Source: a virus
Lineage: Duplodnaviria; Caudoviricetes
DNA: 35,020 nucleotides
IMG/VR virus record: IMGVR_UViG_3300015370_000032
Location: 1-35,020 of that record
Direction: 5' to 3' (one strand)
Shown piece by piece: positions 11,825 through 34,380 of this stretch. The notes under the pieces are model-generated. The model was given only the letters and a program-made list of their open reading frames with translations, searched no databases and was not told the DNA's origin. The translations under genes and the position numbers were made by a program. Position 1 is the first letter of the stretch, and every line of letters starts with the position of its first letter.

Positions 11825-11913
11825 GTGAGCCTCGCTGTGTGGGTTGCACTCAAGATGCAGCAGCGAGGAAAAAATAAAAAGGGGGTCGTATCTTGTAGAA
11901 GATATTTGCTTCC

Positions 11914-11961
11914 ACACGAAAATTCCTGTGGAAGAATTTTCGTGTACAGGAATTTTCTTGT
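11914..11961. promoter_or_regulatory. Three abutting 16-bp repeats, putative late-activator binding sites
   Basis: ACACGAAAATTCCTGT / GGAAGAATTTTCGTGT / ACAGGAATTTTCTTGT; unit 1 is inverted relative to units 2-3; upstream of the head operon. Confidence 0.6.
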
Positions 11962-12052
11962 GGGGGGAATGGGGGTGGTGATAGAGTGGTTAGGATGCTT
12001 TTACATTGATCTATTCCAGTGGAAAAGAAAAACAATCACAGGGAGGAGAATG

Positions 12053-12208
12053 ATGCAGGACAAATGGGAATTCTACAAAGACGGGGAGAAAAAATGGCGC
12101 TGGAGACGCACCGCATCGAACGGGAGAATTGTGGGAGCCTCTACGCAAGGGTATGTAAACAAAGCAGACTGCGAAGCTAATGCCAGGATAAATGGCTGGA
12201 AGGGTTGA
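12053..12208 (+). CDS. YegP/DUF1508 family protein (moron)
   Basis: WEFYKD..KKWRWRRTASNGRIVGASTQGY..KADC motif; SD GGAGG. Confidence 0.9.
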   Translation: MQDKWEFYKDGEKKWRWRRTASNGRIVGASTQGYVNKADCEANARINGWKG

Positions 12209-12312
12209 AACCAGACATAAACCAAAATATCGGCCTGGTGCTACGCTAAAATTCTATCTCGGCCAACAAGAGGGTGGTGATCTTGAAGCCGCCGCGCTCC
12301 ACGGTATTCAAT

Positions 12313-12786
12313 ATGACAACAGAAACAATGAATCTTATTGCTGTAATTGTCGGTCCAATTATTGCTGTTATAATTACTTTGCTGTATCAAAAGCATAAAG
12401 AGAAGCAAGATACTAAACATAGGGCGTTCCTACTCTTGATGGCCCATCGAAAGTCGATTCCCCCGAATTTCGCAATGGTTGAGGTTCTTAATACCCTTGA
12501 TGTTGTTTTTTCAAAAAATCAAAAAGTTGTGGATCTTTGGCACAAATATTATACGCTTCTTGCTCAACCACCATCTCAGGAGAGAGAGCATACCTGGCTG
12601 GAGCTTCTATCTGAAATAGCCAATGATCTGGACTATCCAACAGTGAAACAAACTGATCTTGATAAGTTTTACATACCACAAGGCCATATTGATCAATTTG
12701 AACTTCAGGGGAAAATACAAAAGGAGCTTTTAAGGGTTTTAGAAAACACTTCAAAGTTCGTTGTTGCTCAGAAAAAAACACCTTAG
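12313..12786 (+). CDS. DUF6680-like protein with N-terminal membrane anchor (moron)
   Basis: AVIVGPIIAV TM segment, F..LMAHR, LNTLDVVF, LL.EIA..L.Y motifs; visibly AT-rich. Confidence 0.75.
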   Translation: MTTETMNLIAVIVGPIIAVIITLLYQKHKEKQDTKHRAFLLLMAHRKSIPPNFAMVEVLNTLDVVFSKNQKVVDLWHKYYTLLAQPPSQEREHTWLELLSEIANDLDYPTVKQTDLDKFYIPQGHIDQFELQGKIQKELLRVLENTSKFVVAQKKTP

Positions 12787-12792
12787 GTTATC

Positions 12793-13056
12793 TCACCCAC
12801 CCATTGCTCGCTGCCGAACCGGATCAACCTGCACGGACTTGATGGTTATATCCATTCTGTGAAGCGGGCAATCCTGGTTGCTACACTTGTGGTAGCGCGT
12901 TTTGAATCCATCCTCCCAGGGCAGGGAACCGGTAATCCTGGCGCGAGGAGTGGCGCAGTGTGGACAGGTGGCGCCATCCTGGGCGGAGTAATCAACCCCA
13001 CTCTTGGCTTCGTTGGTTGCGGAGAGCAGTTTTTCTTCATAAGCATCTGTTGTCAT
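12793..13056 (-). CDS. Ogr/Delta-like zinc-finger late transcription activator
   Basis: CPHC...RYHKCSNQDC pattern; follows the large terminase. Confidence 0.7.
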   Translation of the reverse strand: MTTDAYEEKLLSATNEAKSGVDYSAQDGATCPHCATPRARITGSLPWEDGFKTRYHKCSNQDCPLHRMDITIKSVQVDPVRQRAMGG

Positions 13057-15003: not shown

Positions 15004-15139
15004 TTATTTATTTTCCGCAATACGAGCAAGAAGGAATAGCCGAGAAATGCTTTGTTTCGGTTGGAGAATTTAGAACCTCACTCATGATGATCAAGCTCCT
15101 TTGTGCCTCAATTTTTCGCTTTTTTGAGCGACAAATTAA

Positions 15140-18239: not shown

Positions 18240-18989
18240 TCATTCATCCGGTGGCATGTTCTCGGCAAGCTCAACCTCGATATCCATTGCCGAGGCATAC
18301 TGATTGAACCAGTCATCCCTTGCTGTCAACAGCAGCTCGATCAGCATGCTCGCCTTGGCCGGATCGCCGCCGACCACGGAAATAAATTCCTGCACCCGGC
18401 TGTAAACCATGTGGTTGTAACCGGCATCCAGGGCAACGGCGCGGCCGGCCAGCTCCTGCTCGACTTCCGCCCGGAGCAGGTACTTGCCGCGCTCGACATC
18501 GAACTTGAAGTTTTCCCGCTTCTGCTGGACCCTGATCCGCTCGATCTCTTCTTCGAGCTTGATCCGCTGCAGGTCGTCCTGGTCTTCCCTGTCCTTCTTG
18601 CCGGTTTCCGCACGAGGTACCCAATCCTTGGCATACTTGAGCACGGCGCGCCGGGTATAAAGCCCCTGGGCATTTCTGACCAGCTTTCCCTGCTTGACGT
18701 GCTGATAAAACTGAGTCTTCTCCAGATTCCAGCCGTTGTCCTGCAGGTAACGCAGAACAGCGGCACCGTTCTTGGTGTCCTGGAACTGCGCTTCCGGTTC
18801 CTGATCGGCCGCTTTTTCCTTGGCCAGGTGTTTCTCGATCATGTTGGTTGCCCGTTCCATGGCCACCAAATTGGTCGCGGAGGGATCCTGCAAGGCCCGT
18901 TGCTTGGCCTCCTCCTTGGCGGATATCAGGACCGACAAATCCGTTTTTCCGGACTCCGAAAGGATGCTATCCAGTTCGTTGCGATCCAT
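18240..18989 (-). CDS. Probable terminase small subunit (Nu1-like)
   Basis: wHTH-like KTQFYQHVKQGKL...GLY followed by coiled coil ending ERGKYLLRAEVEQE; start overlaps the DUF488 stop. Confidence 0.62.
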   Translation of the reverse strand: MDRNELDSILSESGKTDLSVLISAKEEAKQRALQDPSATNLVAMERATNMIEKHLAKEKAADQEPEAQFQDTKNGAAVLRYLQDNGWNLEKTQFYQHVKQGKLVRNAQGLYTRRAVLKYAKDWVPRAETGKKDREDQDDLQRIKLEEEIERIRVQQKRENFKFDVERGKYLLRAEVEQELAGRAVALDAGYNHMVYSRVQEFISVVGGDPAKASMLIELLLTARDDWFNQYASAMDIEVELAENMPPDE

Positions 18990-19336
18990 TACCTGCCAAG
19001 CTCCCACTCCGGCAATTCGATGCCTAGAACCTCTCTCACGTGCGCCGCCAGCTCCCCGCGATGGCATTCATCTCGGTTTTTTTCGTAGCAGCAAAATATG
19101 GGGTTCGGAACCTTCCCCTCGATATAGGCAAGCACTTCCGCCAGCCTGTCCGGAGTCGGGAAGCGGTCCCGCAAATCCCGCCTGTATTGCTCCCGCCAGT
19201 CTTCCGCCCAGGGATTAGACGGGGCAAGCTCTACAACCCACAGCCCTCCCTTGCTGAAAAACCGCGGACGCTTGAGAGATATGCACACCTTTCGTTCCGC
19301 CGGCGCCTTGCTTGCAAAATAGGATGTCTGGATCAT
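18989..19336 (-). CDS. DUF488 family protein
   Basis: IQTSYF, ELAPS, FCCYEK..ECHR motifs. Confidence 0.8.
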   Translation of the reverse strand: MIQTSYFASKAPAERKVCISLKRPRFFSKGGLWVVELAPSNPWAEDWREQYRRDLRDRFPTPDRLAEVLAYIEGKVPNPIFCCYEKNRDECHRGELAAHVREVLGIELPEWELGR

Positions 19337-19364
19337 TGCTTTTTCCTCTGCTCTTTTCTATAGT
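19336..19364 (+). promoter_or_regulatory. Sigma70-like promoter P1 for antisense sRNA-1
   Basis: TTGCTT(19336-41)-17 bp-TATAGT(19359-64); predicted start falls at the base of the first hairpin. Confidence 0.6.
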
Positions 19365-19371
19365 CCACATC

Positions 19372-19515
19372 GTGCAATATCCCTCCCTTTTAGGGGTATT
19401 GTGCAGGCCCTGCCCCGTTGGCGCGGGGCGGGGCCACTTTCCGGCTCTATAAGCCGGGGCCTCAACTCGGAAGCCAGGACTCTCGGAAACTCCTTGAGTC
19501 CTGGCTTTTTCTTCT
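19372..19515 (+). ncRNA. Putative structured antisense small RNA 1 (about 145 nt)
   Basis: Four consecutive hairpins (19372-404, 19406-435, 19441-457, 19471-507) whose non-Watson-Crick positions form G-U pairs on the + strand; last hairpin followed by a T-tract. Confidence 0.6.
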
Positions 19516-19522
19516 TTATAGT
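19494..19522 (+). promoter_or_regulatory. Sigma70-like promoter P2 for antisense sRNA-2
   Basis: TTGAGT(19494-99)-17 bp-TATAGT(19517-22), nested in the sRNA-1 terminator. Confidence 0.6.
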
Positions 19523-19528
19523 GTCCGC

Positions 19529-19600
19529 AGAACCTTCCCCTTTAAGGGGGAGCGGTTCTTCTCTTCGGCCCCTCCTGTTGCAGCGGGAGGGGTTTTTCTT
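19529..19600 (+). ncRNA. Putative antisense small RNA 2 (about 70 nt)
   Basis: Hairpin 19529-559, linker, terminator hairpin 19569-592 + TTTTT; 14-nt complement to the RBS of the large ParB gene. Confidence 0.62.
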
Positions 19601-19610
19601 CGCCTTCCGG

Positions 19611-21305
19611 TCATGCTCCTAGAATCTCCGAGGGCACCCGGCCAACCAGATTGACGCCGGACTCCAGGAAGACCCTTTTCAGCTCTCCTTTCTTACATTT
19701 TCCGTAGGCTCCTTCCGGCTTGCCGATTGTTTCAGTGAGGAATTTCACCGCCTGTTCCTCTGCGAAGATCCCCAGGGACTCGCCCATGGCCATCATTTCA
19801 GCTACGGTTTTCTTGTCGAGATACTCTTCGGTGATCGCCCACTCCTGGGCCATGTCGATGCCAAGATGCTCCGCCGCCCGCCAACGTCCGGCACAGGTCA
19901 CCTTGTCTTTTTGCAGAAAGGTTTCCAGGGCGGCGGCCACCAGCTCTTCCTCAAGCTCCTGGCCGCTCATGGTGGCCAGCTTGACCATGATCTCTTCGTC
20001 CGAAAGCCTGGTCCAGGTATCAATCTCCTTTTCCCCTGCCATTTTGTGGCGTTGAACAAACCACGGCTGCAGATCCCGGTTGGAAACGAGCTGGGCAAAG
20101 AGGATCAGCCGCCGACGGCTCGCTGAATCGACCCCACCGGCCTGTATTTTGGCGGGCAAGGCCTCCCGGAAGAAAAGATCGCGGAAGTGCTCTCCGTGCC
20201 ATGCCACCCTGGGGCCAGCCGCCTTGGCCGCTGCAGTCTTTTCCACGCTCTTGCCTTCACTCCAGGCTTCGGTGGTGGTTTTCTTGAAACAGGCCTTGTC
20301 GCCCATGCAGACCTTGGGCCGGTCCACCTTGCCGGTGAGCGACACCAGGGAAAAGAAGGACTCGCAGGATTTGCATGGTTTCGGCGTCTTCTGCCAGCTG
20401 CCGATCTCCTCGTAATCATTCCACTGAAAATCCGATGAAAAACGGAAGCCGTTGGTGGGCAGTTTGTGCTTTGCCCGGAAATCATTCCAGTTGTCCTTGA
20501 GCCAGTTGTTCTGTTTCTGCTTGAAGCATTTCGGATTGTTGCACTGAATGGCATCAGAGGCGGAGCCGAACAGGCTCTTCTGGACATCCGAGTTCTGGAA
20601 GCAGGTGGCGCACCCGGCTTTGTCGACATCGAAAAAAGCCGACTTCAACTCCGGAGATTCACTGTCGATCTTGCGGGCCAGATCCCGCACCGCCACATGC
20701 CGGAACCTGGATTGTTCTTCCATCCATTCAAACAGTATTTTTACCTGCTTTTTGTCACCAACCCGGGTGAGTTGTTCCAGGTGGCCATATTTCAGGCTGC
20801 CCTGTGCCCAGGCCTCAAGAACCTCTTTCGGAAGCTCCAGTATCTTGACGCGGCGGCGGATATAGGCAGGGTTGATACCGATCCTCTCGGCCAGAATCGG
20901 GACCGCTTCGTCGCCCATCCGGTCGATATATAATTTGAAGCTGTTTGCCTCCTCCAGCTCTGTGATGTCGTTGCGCTGGAGGTTCTCGATGGTCATAATC
21001 TCAAAGGCTTCGTTGTCGTCCAGATCGCGCACCATGGCCGGGATGGCATGCTTGGACAGACCCCCGTTTTCCTTGGCAAGGTCGCAACTGACACGCCAAC
21101 GGCGCTCTCCGAAGACTATCTCGTACTTCTTGTCCGGGAGCTGTCGGACCATAATGGGCTGGAGCACTCCTTTTTCACGGACCGAGGCAAGCAGGTCCTC
21201 ATAAGCCTTTCCGGTAAAGTTCTTTCTTGGGTTCAGTGGGTTGGCAATGATCTTGTTCAGCTTGATCTGTTCGATTGTCTGTTGTTGCGCGGTGTTGGTG
21301 GTCAT
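19611..21305 (-). CDS. Large ParB/RepB/Spo0J-family protein (PRTRC-ParB-like)
   Basis: NPRK, GVLQPI.VR, GERRWR, ENLQR, HTH; Cys cluster CATCFQNS...CNNPKCF; 564 aa. Confidence 0.9.
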   Translation of the reverse strand: MTTNTAQQQTIEQIKLNKIIANPLNPRKNFTGKAYEDLLASVREKGVLQPIMVRQLPDKKYEIVFGERRWRVSCDLAKENGGLSKHAIPAMVRDLDDNEAFEIMTIENLQRNDITELEEANSFKLYIDRMGDEAVPILAERIGINPAYIRRRVKILELPKEVLEAWAQGSLKYGHLEQLTRVGDKKQVKILFEWMEEQSRFRHVAVRDLARKIDSESPELKSAFFDVDKAGCATCFQNSDVQKSLFGSASDAIQCNNPKCFKQKQNNWLKDNWNDFRAKHKLPTNGFRFSSDFQWNDYEEIGSWQKTPKPCKSCESFFSLVSLTGKVDRPKVCMGDKACFKKTTTEAWSEGKSVEKTAAAKAAGPRVAWHGEHFRDLFFREALPAKIQAGGVDSASRRRLILFAQLVSNRDLQPWFVQRHKMAGEKEIDTWTRLSDEEIMVKLATMSGQELEEELVAAALETFLQKDKVTCAGRWRAAEHLGIDMAQEWAITEEYLDKKTVAEMMAMGESLGIFAEEQAVKFLTETIGKPEGAYGKCKKGELKRVFLESGVNLVGRVPSEILGA

Positions 21306-22115: not shown

Positions 22116-23456
22116 TTATTTCCTCGTTTTTTTTGTCCATATTTCAAGCACTTGCGCGATATTGTGCGCCCCGGCCTCTGCACAGTAGTTGAGCAGGAAA
22201 CCGCCCTCCGCCTCTTTGCGTTTATGGAGCGTAAAGATGCCGCGATACTTCATGCTCACCGGGTGCTTGGCAAAGGCGCTGGTGGTGATCCAGCCAAAGT
22301 CCTCTATGTAACGCAGGTCAAGGATCTCCTTGATCTCTTTGGAGAGCAGACAGAGCAACACCAGTTTTGCCAGCCGCTTTTCAACGCTGGGCACTGCCAG
22401 GTCGGACATCAGGTAGATCATGGGCCTGTCATCCGGCAGCTTCCACTGGTGCGAGGACGGGCAGAAATCCGCCTTGCCGATTACGTGGCCGTCGAGCAGG
22501 AAGGCCAGGGAGACGCCGACGCCGCCGGTGAAATAGTCGATCCGCGAAGAGAGGAACAACTCATTCATTCGGATAGATTGACCAAAGGTGATTTTTGCAA
22601 AGGAGAGCTGTTCTTTTCCGGTCACTTCCCGGTCGGCAGGCCAGATAGGGCCGATGGCTTCACTTTTGACTACTTTGCGACCCACGATCCGGCGGCGATC
22701 GCTTTTAGCGATGATGTGGGAAAAACTGTTCCGGCCGCGCGGCAGAATGGCGGACGGCTGGCCAAGGATTGCATGCACATCCGGGAGGTCTTTTTCCAGG
22801 ACCACAAAATATGAGGTAAAGCGGGAAATTTCCTCGTACAGTTCCATGCTTTTGTCGGTCATTTCCTTGTAGGCAGGTTGTTCCCAGGCGATTGAGGCGC
22901 GCAACAGCTTTTCCAGGCGCTCATAGCCTGCCCGGTAAGTCGGGGGGAAAGCGAACACCGTATGCTCCGAGGATTTCTCGGCCAGAAGCTCAAAGCCGTC
23001 TTTGGCCTGGTAGTCGATGGGGCCTATATGCTTCTTGTATATCTGTAGCTTCTCTCTGGTGGTGGCGAGCAGGGTTTCCCATTCCAGCCGATACTGGCGC
23101 ATGACCTTTTCTTGATATGGGTTCTTTATCTGCCACACTTCCCGCAGATCGTAGAGCAGGGCGATGGAGGCCACGACATCCACGGGCGAGTCGAGACGGA
23201 GCATCCCTTGCAACTGTTCCGGGCACTCCGGGTTTTCGCTGACATCAAAAGGGCTGTCCGCCAGAAATGCGCCAAGAGCCGAGGTGTAAAGGGAAACATC
23301 ACAAGCCGTTATGGGCCCGGTATATCCTCCGGAACGCAGGGCCGAAGCAACGGTGAAGTTTCCGGCGCCGATCAGCAGCACCGGGTGCTCAATTTCTTTT
23401 GCGTATTGCGCCAGGGTCTGCCGGACAGAGGCGGCGACTGCTCCGATAAATGACAT
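22116..23456 (-). CDS. Putative anti-restriction adenine methyltransferase fused to a GNAT-like C-terminal domain
   Basis: SAM motif LLIGAGNF, catalytic-like FPPTY; C-terminal LMSDLAV..KRLAKLV...SMKYRG; start ATG 23456 just after the ParB-N stop. Confidence 0.72.
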   Translation of the reverse strand: MSFIGAVAASVRQTLAQYAKEIEHPVLLIGAGNFTVASALRSGGYTGPITACDVSLYTSALGAFLADSPFDVSENPECPEQLQGMLRLDSPVDVVASIALLYDLREVWQIKNPYQEKVMRQYRLEWETLLATTREKLQIYKKHIGPIDYQAKDGFELLAEKSSEHTVFAFPPTYRAGYERLEKLLRASIAWEQPAYKEMTDKSMELYEEISRFTSYFVVLEKDLPDVHAILGQPSAILPRGRNSFSHIIAKSDRRRIVGRKVVKSEAIGPIWPADREVTGKEQLSFAKITFGQSIRMNELFLSSRIDYFTGGVGVSLAFLLDGHVIGKADFCPSSHQWKLPDDRPMIYLMSDLAVPSVEKRLAKLVLLCLLSKEIKEILDLRYIEDFGWITTSAFAKHPVSMKYRGIFTLHKRKEAEGGFLLNYCAEAGAHNIAQVLEIWTKKTRK

Positions 23457-23457
23457 C

Positions 23458-24198
23458 TCAGACCACCTCTTCCAGCTTTTCCAGCAGGCGCAGCATGGCC
23501 AGACTGCCGTTCTTGATATTGTCCTTCTTCTTGACCGCGAGCAGTTTTTTGAAAAAGGCGTCAAACTGATCGGCCTGGGCAAGATAGACGTTATCTGAGG
23601 GGATCCGCCCGAGTTCGTCCATAATCTCTGCGACAGCCCCGAATTCCATTTCGGTGAAGGCGAAAGTCACCTGCCTGGTGCGCGGCTGCGGGGTGCTGAA
23701 ATTAAGCAGCTTTACATTCTGCAGCTCACCGATTGTTTCGCTGGAAAGCCCGGCGTAGCATTTTGCTTTGATGTCATCGATGCGGGCCCAGAGTCCGGCA
23801 AGAATCTGCTGGTCATCTTCACCGACCAGGGAGTTATGGGAGAGCTGGATAGAAATTTTTTGGCTCAATTCTATTGCTTCGATGATCACGATTACCATGA
23901 TCCATTGGATTCCGGCCTCGACAGAGGCTTTTACCCTGTGATTTCCGGAGAGCACTTCCAGCCGGTTGCTGTCATCCATCGGATAACAGAGAGGGACACT
24001 GGAAAGCCGCTGATCCTGCCGGAGGTTGGCCACCAGCTGCTTGAAGGTTTCCTTTTTGAAATAACGGGCATTTTCTTTGAGAATAACCAGGGATGCCGGA
24101 TCAACAATGCGGAGTTCTGCGGAATCTCCAAAGAGAAGGCGGCTGGTTTCCTTGAGGGCTTCGTTTTGACGCGCAATATCTTCTGGCTGCATGATCAT
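23458..24198 (-). CDS. ParB N-terminal (Srx/ParB) domain protein
   Basis: NARY, SSVPL, VLSGNHRV.A, QLSHNSLVG.DD motifs. Confidence 0.85.
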   Translation of the reverse strand: MIMQPEDIARQNEALKETSRLLFGDSAELRIVDPASLVILKENARYFKKETFKQLVANLRQDQRLSSVPLCYPMDDSNRLEVLSGNHRVKASVEAGIQWIMVIVIIEAIELSQKISIQLSHNSLVGEDDQQILAGLWARIDDIKAKCYAGLSSETIGELQNVKLLNFSTPQPRTRQVTFAFTEMEFGAVAEIMDELGRIPSDNVYLAQADQFDAFFKKLLAVKKKDNIKNGSLAMLRLLEKLEEVV

Positions 24199-34290: not shown

Positions 34291-34335
34291 TGGTAAGAAG
34301 GCTGAAAAGCCTTGCGAGACTAAATACGATATATA

Positions 34336-34380
34336 CCTCTCACGCCGGTAACACGGGTTCGAGTCCCGTAGGGGTCACCA
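34336..34380 (+). pseudogene. att core: 3' half of tRNA-Glu(CTC), anticodon loop to CCA
   Basis: CT-CTC-AC loop, GCCGG, T-arm ACGGG-TTCGAGT-CCCGT, acceptor strand AGGGGTC-A-CCA; 5' half absent. Confidence 0.9.

What the first reader, a model, noticed from the sequence alone, without database searches (positions are those of the whole stretch)
19336..19600. Tandem pair of promoter-hairpin-terminator small-RNA units antisense to the lytic operon
Seen: this 275-bp gap is almost entirely hairpins (six stems) whose mismatches resolve as G-U pairs on the + strand, opposite to all flanking genes. Two promoter-like elements share the same -10 with 17-bp spacing (TTGCTT/TATAGT at 19336-64; TTGAGT/TATAGT at 19494-522). 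Each puts +1 at the base of a hairpin (about 19372 and 19529), and each unit ends in a GC stem plus T-tract (19471-515; 19569-600). P2 is nested in the terminator of unit 1. Inference: two independent ~145- and ~70-nt sRNAs; I do not recognise them as a known family.
Basis: partly seen in the sequence, partly recalled or inferred. Interest (0 to 1): 0.85.

Follow-up and report, generated by a model that had tools for sequence, protein, structure and literature searches.

The report
Tandem Sar-like antisense RNAs in prophage
A prophage carries two tandem, conserved promoter-plus-two-hairpin units built like the Sar antisense RNA of phage P22; the first lies exactly opposite a ribosome-binding site just ahead of the DNA-packaging genes and likely blocks it, while the second has no start codon opposite it and may act in trans, and neither RNA has yet been detected.

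Summary
In detail: six hairpins, + strand preference (z -8.3) and two 17-bp-spaced promoter-like sites. Against a related prophage the gap differs at 16 of 235 positions, versus 123 of 351 at silent sites, and stem changes keep pairing. The two units are paralogues. A distant phage contig (L042) has one unit (TTGACT-17-TATAGT) opposite the start of a 58-aa gene. Unit 1 copies the layout of P22 Sar: -10 box in codons 3-4 of the opposite ORF, RNA starting next to the start codon, anti-Shine-Dalgarno loop, and a second hairpin capped GUUNNNGC (identical to SymR's GUUGGCGC). It is likely a ~70-nt translational repressor, with 145 nt as read-through. No Rfam family reaches its threshold, so it works like Sar but is not filed as Sar. 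Unit 2 is equally conserved but has GCG where the start codon would be; its best partner in the prophage is inside DUF488 (weak lead). No RNA data. The scan noted SymR/sas-like modules before on other prophages. New variant of a known kind.

The parts
19336..19364 (+). P1, predicted sigma-70 promoter (TTGCTT-17-TATAGT); its -10 box is codons 3-4 (ACT ATA) of the - strand leader ORF, and its -35 abuts the DUF488 start
   Evidence: homologue L042 has TTGACT-17-TATAGT
19371..19441 (+). Unit 1 predicted antisense RNA (~70 nt): H1 19372-19404 with anti-SD CCCUCCC running into the loop, H2 19406-19435 with GUUGGCGC apex, weak tail ACUUU
   Evidence: fold -48.2 kcal/mol, z -7.3; 3 of 77 differences to L086, none in a stem
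19441..19457 (+). H3, short hairpin in the read-through part; loop differs and stem is kept in L086
19469..19515 (+). H4 hairpin plus U-tract, predicted back-up terminator for P1 read-through (145-nt form); contains the P2 -35
   Evidence: 0 of 37 differences to L086
19494..19522 (+). P2, predicted sigma-70 promoter (TTGAGT-17-TATAGT; TATGAT in L086)
19529..19599 (+). Unit 2 predicted RNA (~70 nt): H5 19529-19559, H6 19567-19594 with GUUGCAGC apex, U-tract; paralogue of unit 1 with no start codon opposite (GCG)
   Evidence: 5 of 71 differences to L086, four in stems that keep pairing (one C-G to U-A) and one in the U-tract
19381..19387 (-). Shine-Dalgarno GGGAGGG of the leader ORF, the cis target of unit 1
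   Evidence: sequence; kept in L086, L028 and L042
19215..19370 (-). 51-codon leader ORF (MWTIEK...) overlapping the DUF488 start in another frame; likely a remnant of the 58-aa ORF (MITIEK...) seen in L042
   Evidence: ATG kept in L086 and L028
18989..19336 (-). DUF488-N3-like gene (Pfam PF22751, E 0.002, below the curated cut-off); its stop overlaps the next start (TAATG)
19108..19119 (-). 12-nt exact complement of the unit 2 5' arm inside the DUF488 coding region (candidate trans target, weak lead)
18240..18989 (-). Probable terminase small subunit (phrog_57, E 2e-4), first packaging gene downstream
19611..21305 (-). ParB-domain gene whose stop lies about 11 nt from the 3' end of unit 2

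Best explanation
The gap holds two paralogous promoter-plus-two-hairpin units laid out like phage P22 Sar, and unit 1 likely makes a ~70-nt antisense RNA that would pair with the Shine-Dalgarno sequence of the leader ORF on the lytic mRNA and block its translation. Shown: the stems, their conservation, the promoter boxes, and the fixed register (-10 box, 3 nt, complement of the start codon, RNA). Inferred: host sigma-70 fires P1 in the lysogen; the C/U-rich H1 loop makes first contact with GGGAGGG and a full duplex follows; the RNA ends at H2, with H4 catching read-through before it runs over P2. Inferred further: the leader overlaps the DUF488 start here and stops 3 nt before it in L042, and DUF488 is stop-start coupled to the probable terminase small subunit. 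The block would therefore damp DUF488 and the packaging genes by lost coupling or polarity, silencing leaky lytic transcripts in the prophage until induction makes mRNA outnumber the RNA. Unit 2 is most likely a duplicate that lost its own start codon and is still made; it would add a second brake on the same mRNA, by duplex formation in cis or by pairing inside DUF488.
For: (1) Selection: 16 of 235 gap positions differ from L086 against 123 of 351 four-fold sites in the three flanking genes; unit 1 3 of 77, unit 2 5 of 71, H4 0 of 37. (2) H2/H6 across six units: 94.6% of cells paired, 5 of 13 pairs changed on both sides, slid controls 52-57%. (3) All six units keep TTG-N20-TAT..T. (4) Model R1, built from unit 1 of three close sequences, finds L042 at 36.4 bits, E 3.5e-6. 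There a single unit fills the space between a ParB-like C-terminus and a 58-aa ORF with SD AGGAGG and GTG in the same register, followed by DUF488 and the terminase small subunit homologue; that ORF has an independent homologue, P0012, 63% identical. (5) RefSeq P22: sar 15021-15090, ant ATG 15091, Psar 15097-15125, i.e. TATACT-att-CAT-RNA, the same register as TATAGT-cca-CAT-RNA here. Sar folds into two hairpins with CUCC in the first and a GUUACCGC apex and AACUUU tail on the second. (6) Model R3, not trained on Sar, returns sar as the best hit outside its training loci in 268 kb (23.2 bits, E 0.011). (7) SymR's second hairpin has the same 8-nt apex GUUGGCGC as unit 1. (8) Sar and SymR repress translation initiation of their targets (passages of PMC12197685; PMC1891008).
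Against: No transcript is shown. The P1 -35 is poor (3 of 6) and fails the consensus scan. The leader ORF in the window resembles the L042 ORF only in its first six residues, which the promoter itself constrains, has no family hit and may be a dead remnant. DUF488 has its own SD-like GAGGA, largely unpaired in the predicted mRNA fold, so blocking the leader need not repress it. Unit 2 has no cis start codon in either copy. Only three homologous loci were found, 3 of 41 DUF488 loci searched, two of them close relatives; R3 found no further copy in 145 other genomes of the order. R1 alone scores sar weakly (12 bits, E 0.39) and ranks another P22 site higher. Low divergence of the gap could in part reflect recent exchange of the module.
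Confidence: 0.6

Rival explanations
1. Translational switch like P22 sas: unit 1 blocks the out-of-frame leader start and so frees the DUF488 ribosome-binding site, raising DUF488 rather than lowering it.
For: The leader starts 34 nt upstream of DUF488 and runs across its SD and start in another frame; DUF488 has its own SD. P22 sas switches translation between sieB and esc (passages of PMC12197685).
Against: In L042 the target ORF ends 3 nt before DUF488, which fits coupling rather than occlusion. The register matches sar, not an in-frame pair like sieB/esc.
Confidence: 0.12
2. The hairpins or promoters act without RNA-RNA pairing: P1 and P2 interfere with lytic transcription by convergent collision, or the stems work in the - strand mRNA as pause, processing or attenuator signals.
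For: The - strand also folds better than shuffles (z -5.5). Unit 2 has no start codon to cover. The SD is paired in the predicted mRNA fold.
Against: G-U pairs and U-tracts favour the + strand; the A19551G change keeps a pair only on +; the anti-SD loop and start-codon register are kept in L042.
Confidence: 0.15
3. Type I toxin-antitoxin addiction module as in symE/SymR or the proposed PtaRNA1 system, with the leader peptide or DUF488 as toxin that stabilises the prophage.
For: Apex identical to SymR; weak PtaRNA1 hit, 26.2 bits; DUF488 homologues weakly match PADLOC candidate defence models PDC-M19A and PDC-M45C (12 and 10 of 12 members, best E 2e-6 to 4e-6, short stretch).
Against: PtaRNA1 scores up to 26.9 bits on generic hairpins in this order. 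The leader has no toxin family hit. No sense promoter was seen in the gap, so the target is part of the lytic operon, as ant is.
Confidence: 0.08
4. The stems are only terminators that insulate the lytic operon from + strand read-through, and the promoter matches are incidental.
For: H6 and H5 are called terminator-like; weak genome-wide hits of R1 and R2 were ordinary terminators or coding stems.
Against: Promoter boxes and spacing are kept in all six units while the spacer varies; H1 has no U-tract yet is conserved.
Confidence: 0.05

Closest known systems
Phage P22 Sar RNA (Rfam RF00262), antisense to the ant ribosome-binding site
   Same: About 70 nt; promoter inside the first codons of the target with the -10 box in codons 3-4; RNA begins at the base next to the start codon; sits between two genes of one operon; two hairpins; CUCC anti-SD in the first; GUUNNNGC apex and weak ACUUU tail on the second.
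   Different: No RF00262 match at this locus even at E 10; the target is not a recognisable antirepressor but a short leader ahead of DUF488 and packaging genes; two tandem units, one without a cis start codon; a Desulfurivibrio-type host rather than Salmonella.
E. coli SymR antitoxin RNA (Rfam RF01809), antisense to symE
   Same: 77 nt, two hairpins one base apart, promoter inside the target ORF, anti-SD at the tip of hairpin 1, identical GUUGGCGC apex (PMC1891008 passages).
   Different: SymR covers the AUG itself and symE has its own LexA-controlled promoter and is a toxin; RF01809 gives no match in the genome; no SymE-like target was found here.
PtaRNA1 (Rfam RF01811), putative antitoxin RNA
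   Same: Two-hairpin ~72-nt model with an anti-SD stretch; best sub-threshold Rfam hit, over unit 1 (26.2 bits).
   Different: Gathering score is 47 and 26-27 bits is background in this order; the original paper was not held.
P22 sas antisense RNA of sieB/esc
   Same: Antisense RNA over one of two nearby start sites of a prophage gene (PMC12197685 passages).
   Different: sieB and esc are in frame and have their own sense promoter; here the two starts are out of frame inside the lytic operon.

Membership tests
sar RNA (RF00262) | Score at or above the gathering threshold of 43 bits | tested here: not met
   No match at the locus at E up to 10; the P22 control scores 97.8
sar RNA (RF00262) | Antisense promoter within the first codons of the target, RNA starting next to the start codon | tested here: met
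   Unit 1, L086, L028 and L042 share the register of P22; unit 2 has GCG instead of a start codon
sar RNA (RF00262) | Two stem-loops, anti-SD in the first, about 70 nt | tested here: met
sar RNA (RF00262) | Target is the antirepressor gene ant in an immI (mnt-arc-ant) region | tested here: not met
   The target is a leader ahead of DUF488; no ant, arc or mnt family hit next to the gap; the fold of the L042 58-aa ORF was uninformative
sar RNA (RF00262) | RNA is made and represses translation by base pairing | not testable with these tools
   No RNA holder listed
SymR (RF01809) | Score at or above 61 bits | tested here: not met
   No match in the genome; the E. coli control scores 95.3
SymR (RF01809) | Opposite gene encodes a SymE toxin | tested here: not met
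   No SymE hit for the leader, the L042 ORF or DUF488
SymR (RF01809) | Two hairpins one base apart with GUUGGCGC apex | tested here: met
PtaRNA1 (RF01811) | Score at or above 47 bits | tested here: not met
   26.2 bits, equal to background
Type I toxin-antitoxin system | Toxic small protein repressed by the RNA | not testable with these tools
   No toxin family hit; toxicity needs a bench test

The most novel reading that the evidence does not exclude
Unit 2 is a Sar-type RNA caught changing from cis to trans action: after duplication it lost the start codon it once covered, stayed under selection, and now pairs with the DUF488 coding region 420 nt away, so the pair locks the DUF488-terminase entry at two points. 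More widely, Sar, SymR, these units and two unrelated phage loci (L313, L315) would be one unrecognised class of portable silencer: a -10 box in or near codons 3-4, an anti-SD hairpin and a GUUNNNGC-capped hairpin, placed in front of risky phage genes.
Probability: 0.17. Interest if true: 0.7.

Novelty: new variant of a known kind. Interest (0 to 1): 0.42.

Why it matters
Sar-type control is characterised in enterobacterial phages. Finding its layout, below every Rfam threshold, in a prophage of a sulfur-cycling Desulfurivibrio-type host and in unrelated phage contigs suggests the design is wider than current families capture. It also gives a simple search rule: a -10 box in codons 3-4 plus a GUUNNNGC-capped hairpin. 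The tandem pair, one unit with a cis target and one without, is a small testable case of how a cis antisense RNA might become trans-acting. The mechanism itself, antisense blocking of a ribosome-binding site, is well known.

Tried and rejected
Expression: no RNA holder listed; the one run offered held 0.04 of the words, is probably DNA and covered only 19195-19382 well, so it says nothing either way. Rfam at gathering level: 0 hits in the window. PtaRNA1 membership rejected as background. blastn against phages and plasmids gave only 25-49-nt hits at E 0.07 or worse. Two exact hairpin patterns found nothing in viral contigs. The phylum-wide pattern was mis-specified (it missed the window itself) and is void. 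L164 lies inside a coding frame and is chance. Eight ParB homologue loci and 28 terminase-small-subunit loci carry no unit. Of the R1 (5 of 141 genomes) and R2 (16 of 141) hits only G000 and G008 are real; the rest were inspected and are terminators or coding stems. The C149 match to H4 lies in a flagellar FlhA-like gene (name recalled from the translation) and is chance. The 58-aa ORF gave no family, Atlas, viral-contig or class-wide homologue beyond P0012, and its model was poor (pLDDT 52; no fold match). Stop-free frames across the gap (32 aa from the ParB stop; 35 aa from TTG 19465) stay open in L086 but have no supporting SD and are treated as by-products. No paper held explains DUF488 function.

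Full report
Setting. The window is a lambdoid-type prophage: repressor and integrase on the + strand at the right end, and a long - strand operon running from a Cro-like gene through primase, ParB, DUF488, probable terminase small subunit, terminase, portal, capsid and tail. The closest homologous locus, L086, is titled an uncultured Desulfurivibrio; L002, from a genome of the window's genus, has the same sequence there and is counted once.

Observation. All six stems and both promoter-like sites are present at the stated places. The + strand folds at -129.7 kcal/mol (z -8.27) and the - strand at -109.6 (z -5.51). In a coarse scan of 280 120-nt windows, 19365 (+) ranked fifth by z-score. Rfam gives no hit at gathering level; the best weak hit is PtaRNA1 at 26.2 bits over unit 1, which is background for this order (up to 26.9 bits, 29 of 121 genomes ring at E up to 1).

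The two units are paralogues. Pairwise and multiple alignments put promoter, first hairpin and second hairpin of unit 1 in register with those of unit 2, and model R1, built from unit 1 only, finds unit 2 weakly (16.7 bits). The repeating unit is promoter + two hairpins, about 70 nt.

Homologues and selection. DUF488 relatives were collected from viral, metagenome and genome collections: 97 loci with a match, 64 distinct upstream regions. Many follow directly on another gene; some have their own sense promoter. I searched 41 of these loci with R1; 3 carry the unit: L002/L086 (both units), L028 (unit 1, contig ends inside H2) and L042. Against L086 the non-coding gap differs at 16 of 235 aligned positions, while four-fold sites in ParB, DUF488 and the terminase small subunit differ at 123 of 351. 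Unit 1 changes lie in the discriminator and the H1 loop. Unit 2 changes are C-G to U-A, U-A to U-G, U-G to C-G and one in the U-tract; the P2 -10 changes from TATAGT to TATGAT; H4 is invariant (0 of 37). For the second hairpin across six units, 94.6% of cells pair and 5 of 13 pairs change on both sides, against 52-57% for slid controls. These are few and related sequences, so this is support, not a significance test. The count on A10 (18 of 25 pairs) uses an alignment fitted to the model and leans towards it.

L042 shows the simpler state. One unit (TTGACT-17-TATAGT, CCCUCC loop, AUUGCAGU apex, U-tract) fills the space between the stop of a ParB-like C-terminus (667) and a 58-aa ORF (GTG 734, SD AGGAGG), which stops 3 nt before DUF488, followed by the terminase small subunit homologue. 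The 58-aa ORF has one homologue at 63% identity and no known family or fold. In the window the matching start is ATG 19370 with SD GGGAGGG at 19381-87; the ORF begins MWTIEK (MITIEK in L042) and then runs out of frame across the DUF488 start for 51 codons. I infer that most of the small gene was deleted in this lineage.

What it works like. The RefSeq annotation of P22 places sar at 15021-15090, the ant ATG at 15091 and Psar at 15097-15125: TATACT-att-CAT-RNA. Unit 1, L086, L028 and L042 read TATAGT-nnn-CAT/CAC-RNA. Sar folds into two hairpins with CUCC in the first and a GUUACCGC apex and AACUUU tail on the second; unit 1 has CCCUCCC, GUUGGCGC and ACUUU. SymR has the same two-hairpin build and the identical GUUGGCGC apex, though it starts further into its target. 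R1 scores sar weakly (12 bits; second of its hits in P22). R3, trained on window units 1 and 2, L086 unit 1, L042, L313 and L315, returns sar as the best hit outside its training loci in 268 kb (23.2 bits, E 0.011); L313 and L315 were picked by a pattern that imposes the same register, so this is not fully independent. By Rfam score the units are neither sar nor symR (controls 103, 113).

Wider occurrence. A pattern for SD, start codon, antisense -10 and TTG gave 120 viral loci of an estimated 310 and 3 of 301 genomes of the class. Of 109 distinct rows folded, I read the 28 with the best z-scores; besides the known loci, two (L313, L315) show the two-hairpin build, facing an integrase-repeat-like gene (weak Pfam hit) and an HNH endonuclease gene. 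R3 found no further copy in 145 other genomes of the order, so this particular family is rare among those searched.

Mechanism. Shown: structure, conservation, promoter boxes, register. Inferred: unit 1 RNA pairs with the leader SD and blocks initiation, as Sar does for ant and SymR for symE (passages of PMC12197685; PMC1891008; PMC5415839; PMC2629481). Inferred, less firmly: loss of leader translation damps DUF488 and the packaging genes behind it. Against this, DUF488 has its own SD that is largely unpaired in the predicted fold, so the sign of the effect on DUF488 is open, and a sas-like switch is a live rival.

Unit 2. Both copies have GCG where the start codon would be, yet the unit is as conserved as unit 1. 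Its only exact complement of 11 nt or more elsewhere in the prophage is 12 nt at 19108-19119 inside DUF488. Duplex energy there is -42.8 kcal/mol against -36.3 for the best of 98 other blocks, and 1 of 200 shuffles reaches it; DUF488 is also the best block in L086 (-37.7 against -33.1 outside it). But the pairing arm is held in an 18 kcal/mol hairpin, duplexfold ignores that cost, the L086 change is a wobble and not compensatory, and the site is altered in L028 where unit 2 is not on the contig. It is a lead only.

Literature. I read passages only, no whole paper and no supplements. PtaRNA1 is known to me from the Rfam model and one passage each of PMC3013711 and PMC3300014; its original paper was not held. 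A search for papers holding at least two of SymR, sar RNA, PtaRNA1, stem-loop motif and GUUGGCGC listed 2, neither with the motif; a search on cis-encoded antisense with phage HNH genes listed 0. The library lacks most subscription journals and the classic Sar papers, so this does not show that the shared apex is unreported. Earlier notes of this scan describe SymR-like and sas-like modules in other prophages; they sent me to P22 but are not evidence.

Verdict. A real, selected pair of Sar-like antisense units; new variant of a known kind; interest 0.42.

Noticed in passing
L320 (phage P22) 38084-38167, - strand: Unannotated two-hairpin element with a GUUAGCGC apex upstream of holin gene 13; best R1 hit in P22 (22.1 bits).
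   Followed up: partly
L015 661-764, - strand: TATAGT followed by two hairpins with a GUUCCAGC apex between DUF488 and the terminase small subunit homologue in a gut phage contig; R3 19.9 bits, no start codon in the Sar register.
   Followed up: partly
L313 247-327 and L315 247-328, - strand: Sar-like units in unrelated phages facing an integrase-repeat-like gene and an HNH endonuclease gene, each with a sense TATAAT just beyond the second hairpin.
   Followed up: partly
L011, about 2890-2970, - strand: Two hairpins and a T-tract antisense directly upstream of DUF488, with a different sequence and no R1 or R3 match.
   Followed up: partly
L009, L080, L087, upstream of DUF488: DUF488 homologues preceded by their own near-consensus sense sigma-70 promoter, as for an independently expressed moron (read by eye).
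   Followed up: no
window 11865-12786: Long A/T-rich hairpin (about 11890-11965) ahead of a + strand moron of DUF1508 (12050-12208) and DUF6680 (12274-12786) inserted between terminase and portal genes.
   Followed up: partly
window about 34335-34380: A tRNA 3'-half-like stretch ending in CCA followed by a terminator right after the integrase gene, likely the att core; the tRNA-Glu label is recalled, not from a call.
   Followed up: no
window 19466-19488: Direct repeat CTCGGAA twice, 16 bp apart, just upstream of the P2 -35 and invariant in L086; a possible protein-binding site.
   Followed up: no
window 22116-24198: ParB-like nuclease-type gene followed by a Dam-like methylase plus GNAT gene upstream of DUF6908 and ParB, a possible DNA-modification cassette.
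   Followed up: no
window 12793-13056: Ogr/Delta-like zinc-finger gene directly after the terminase large subunit in a phage with lambda-type head genes.
   Followed up: no
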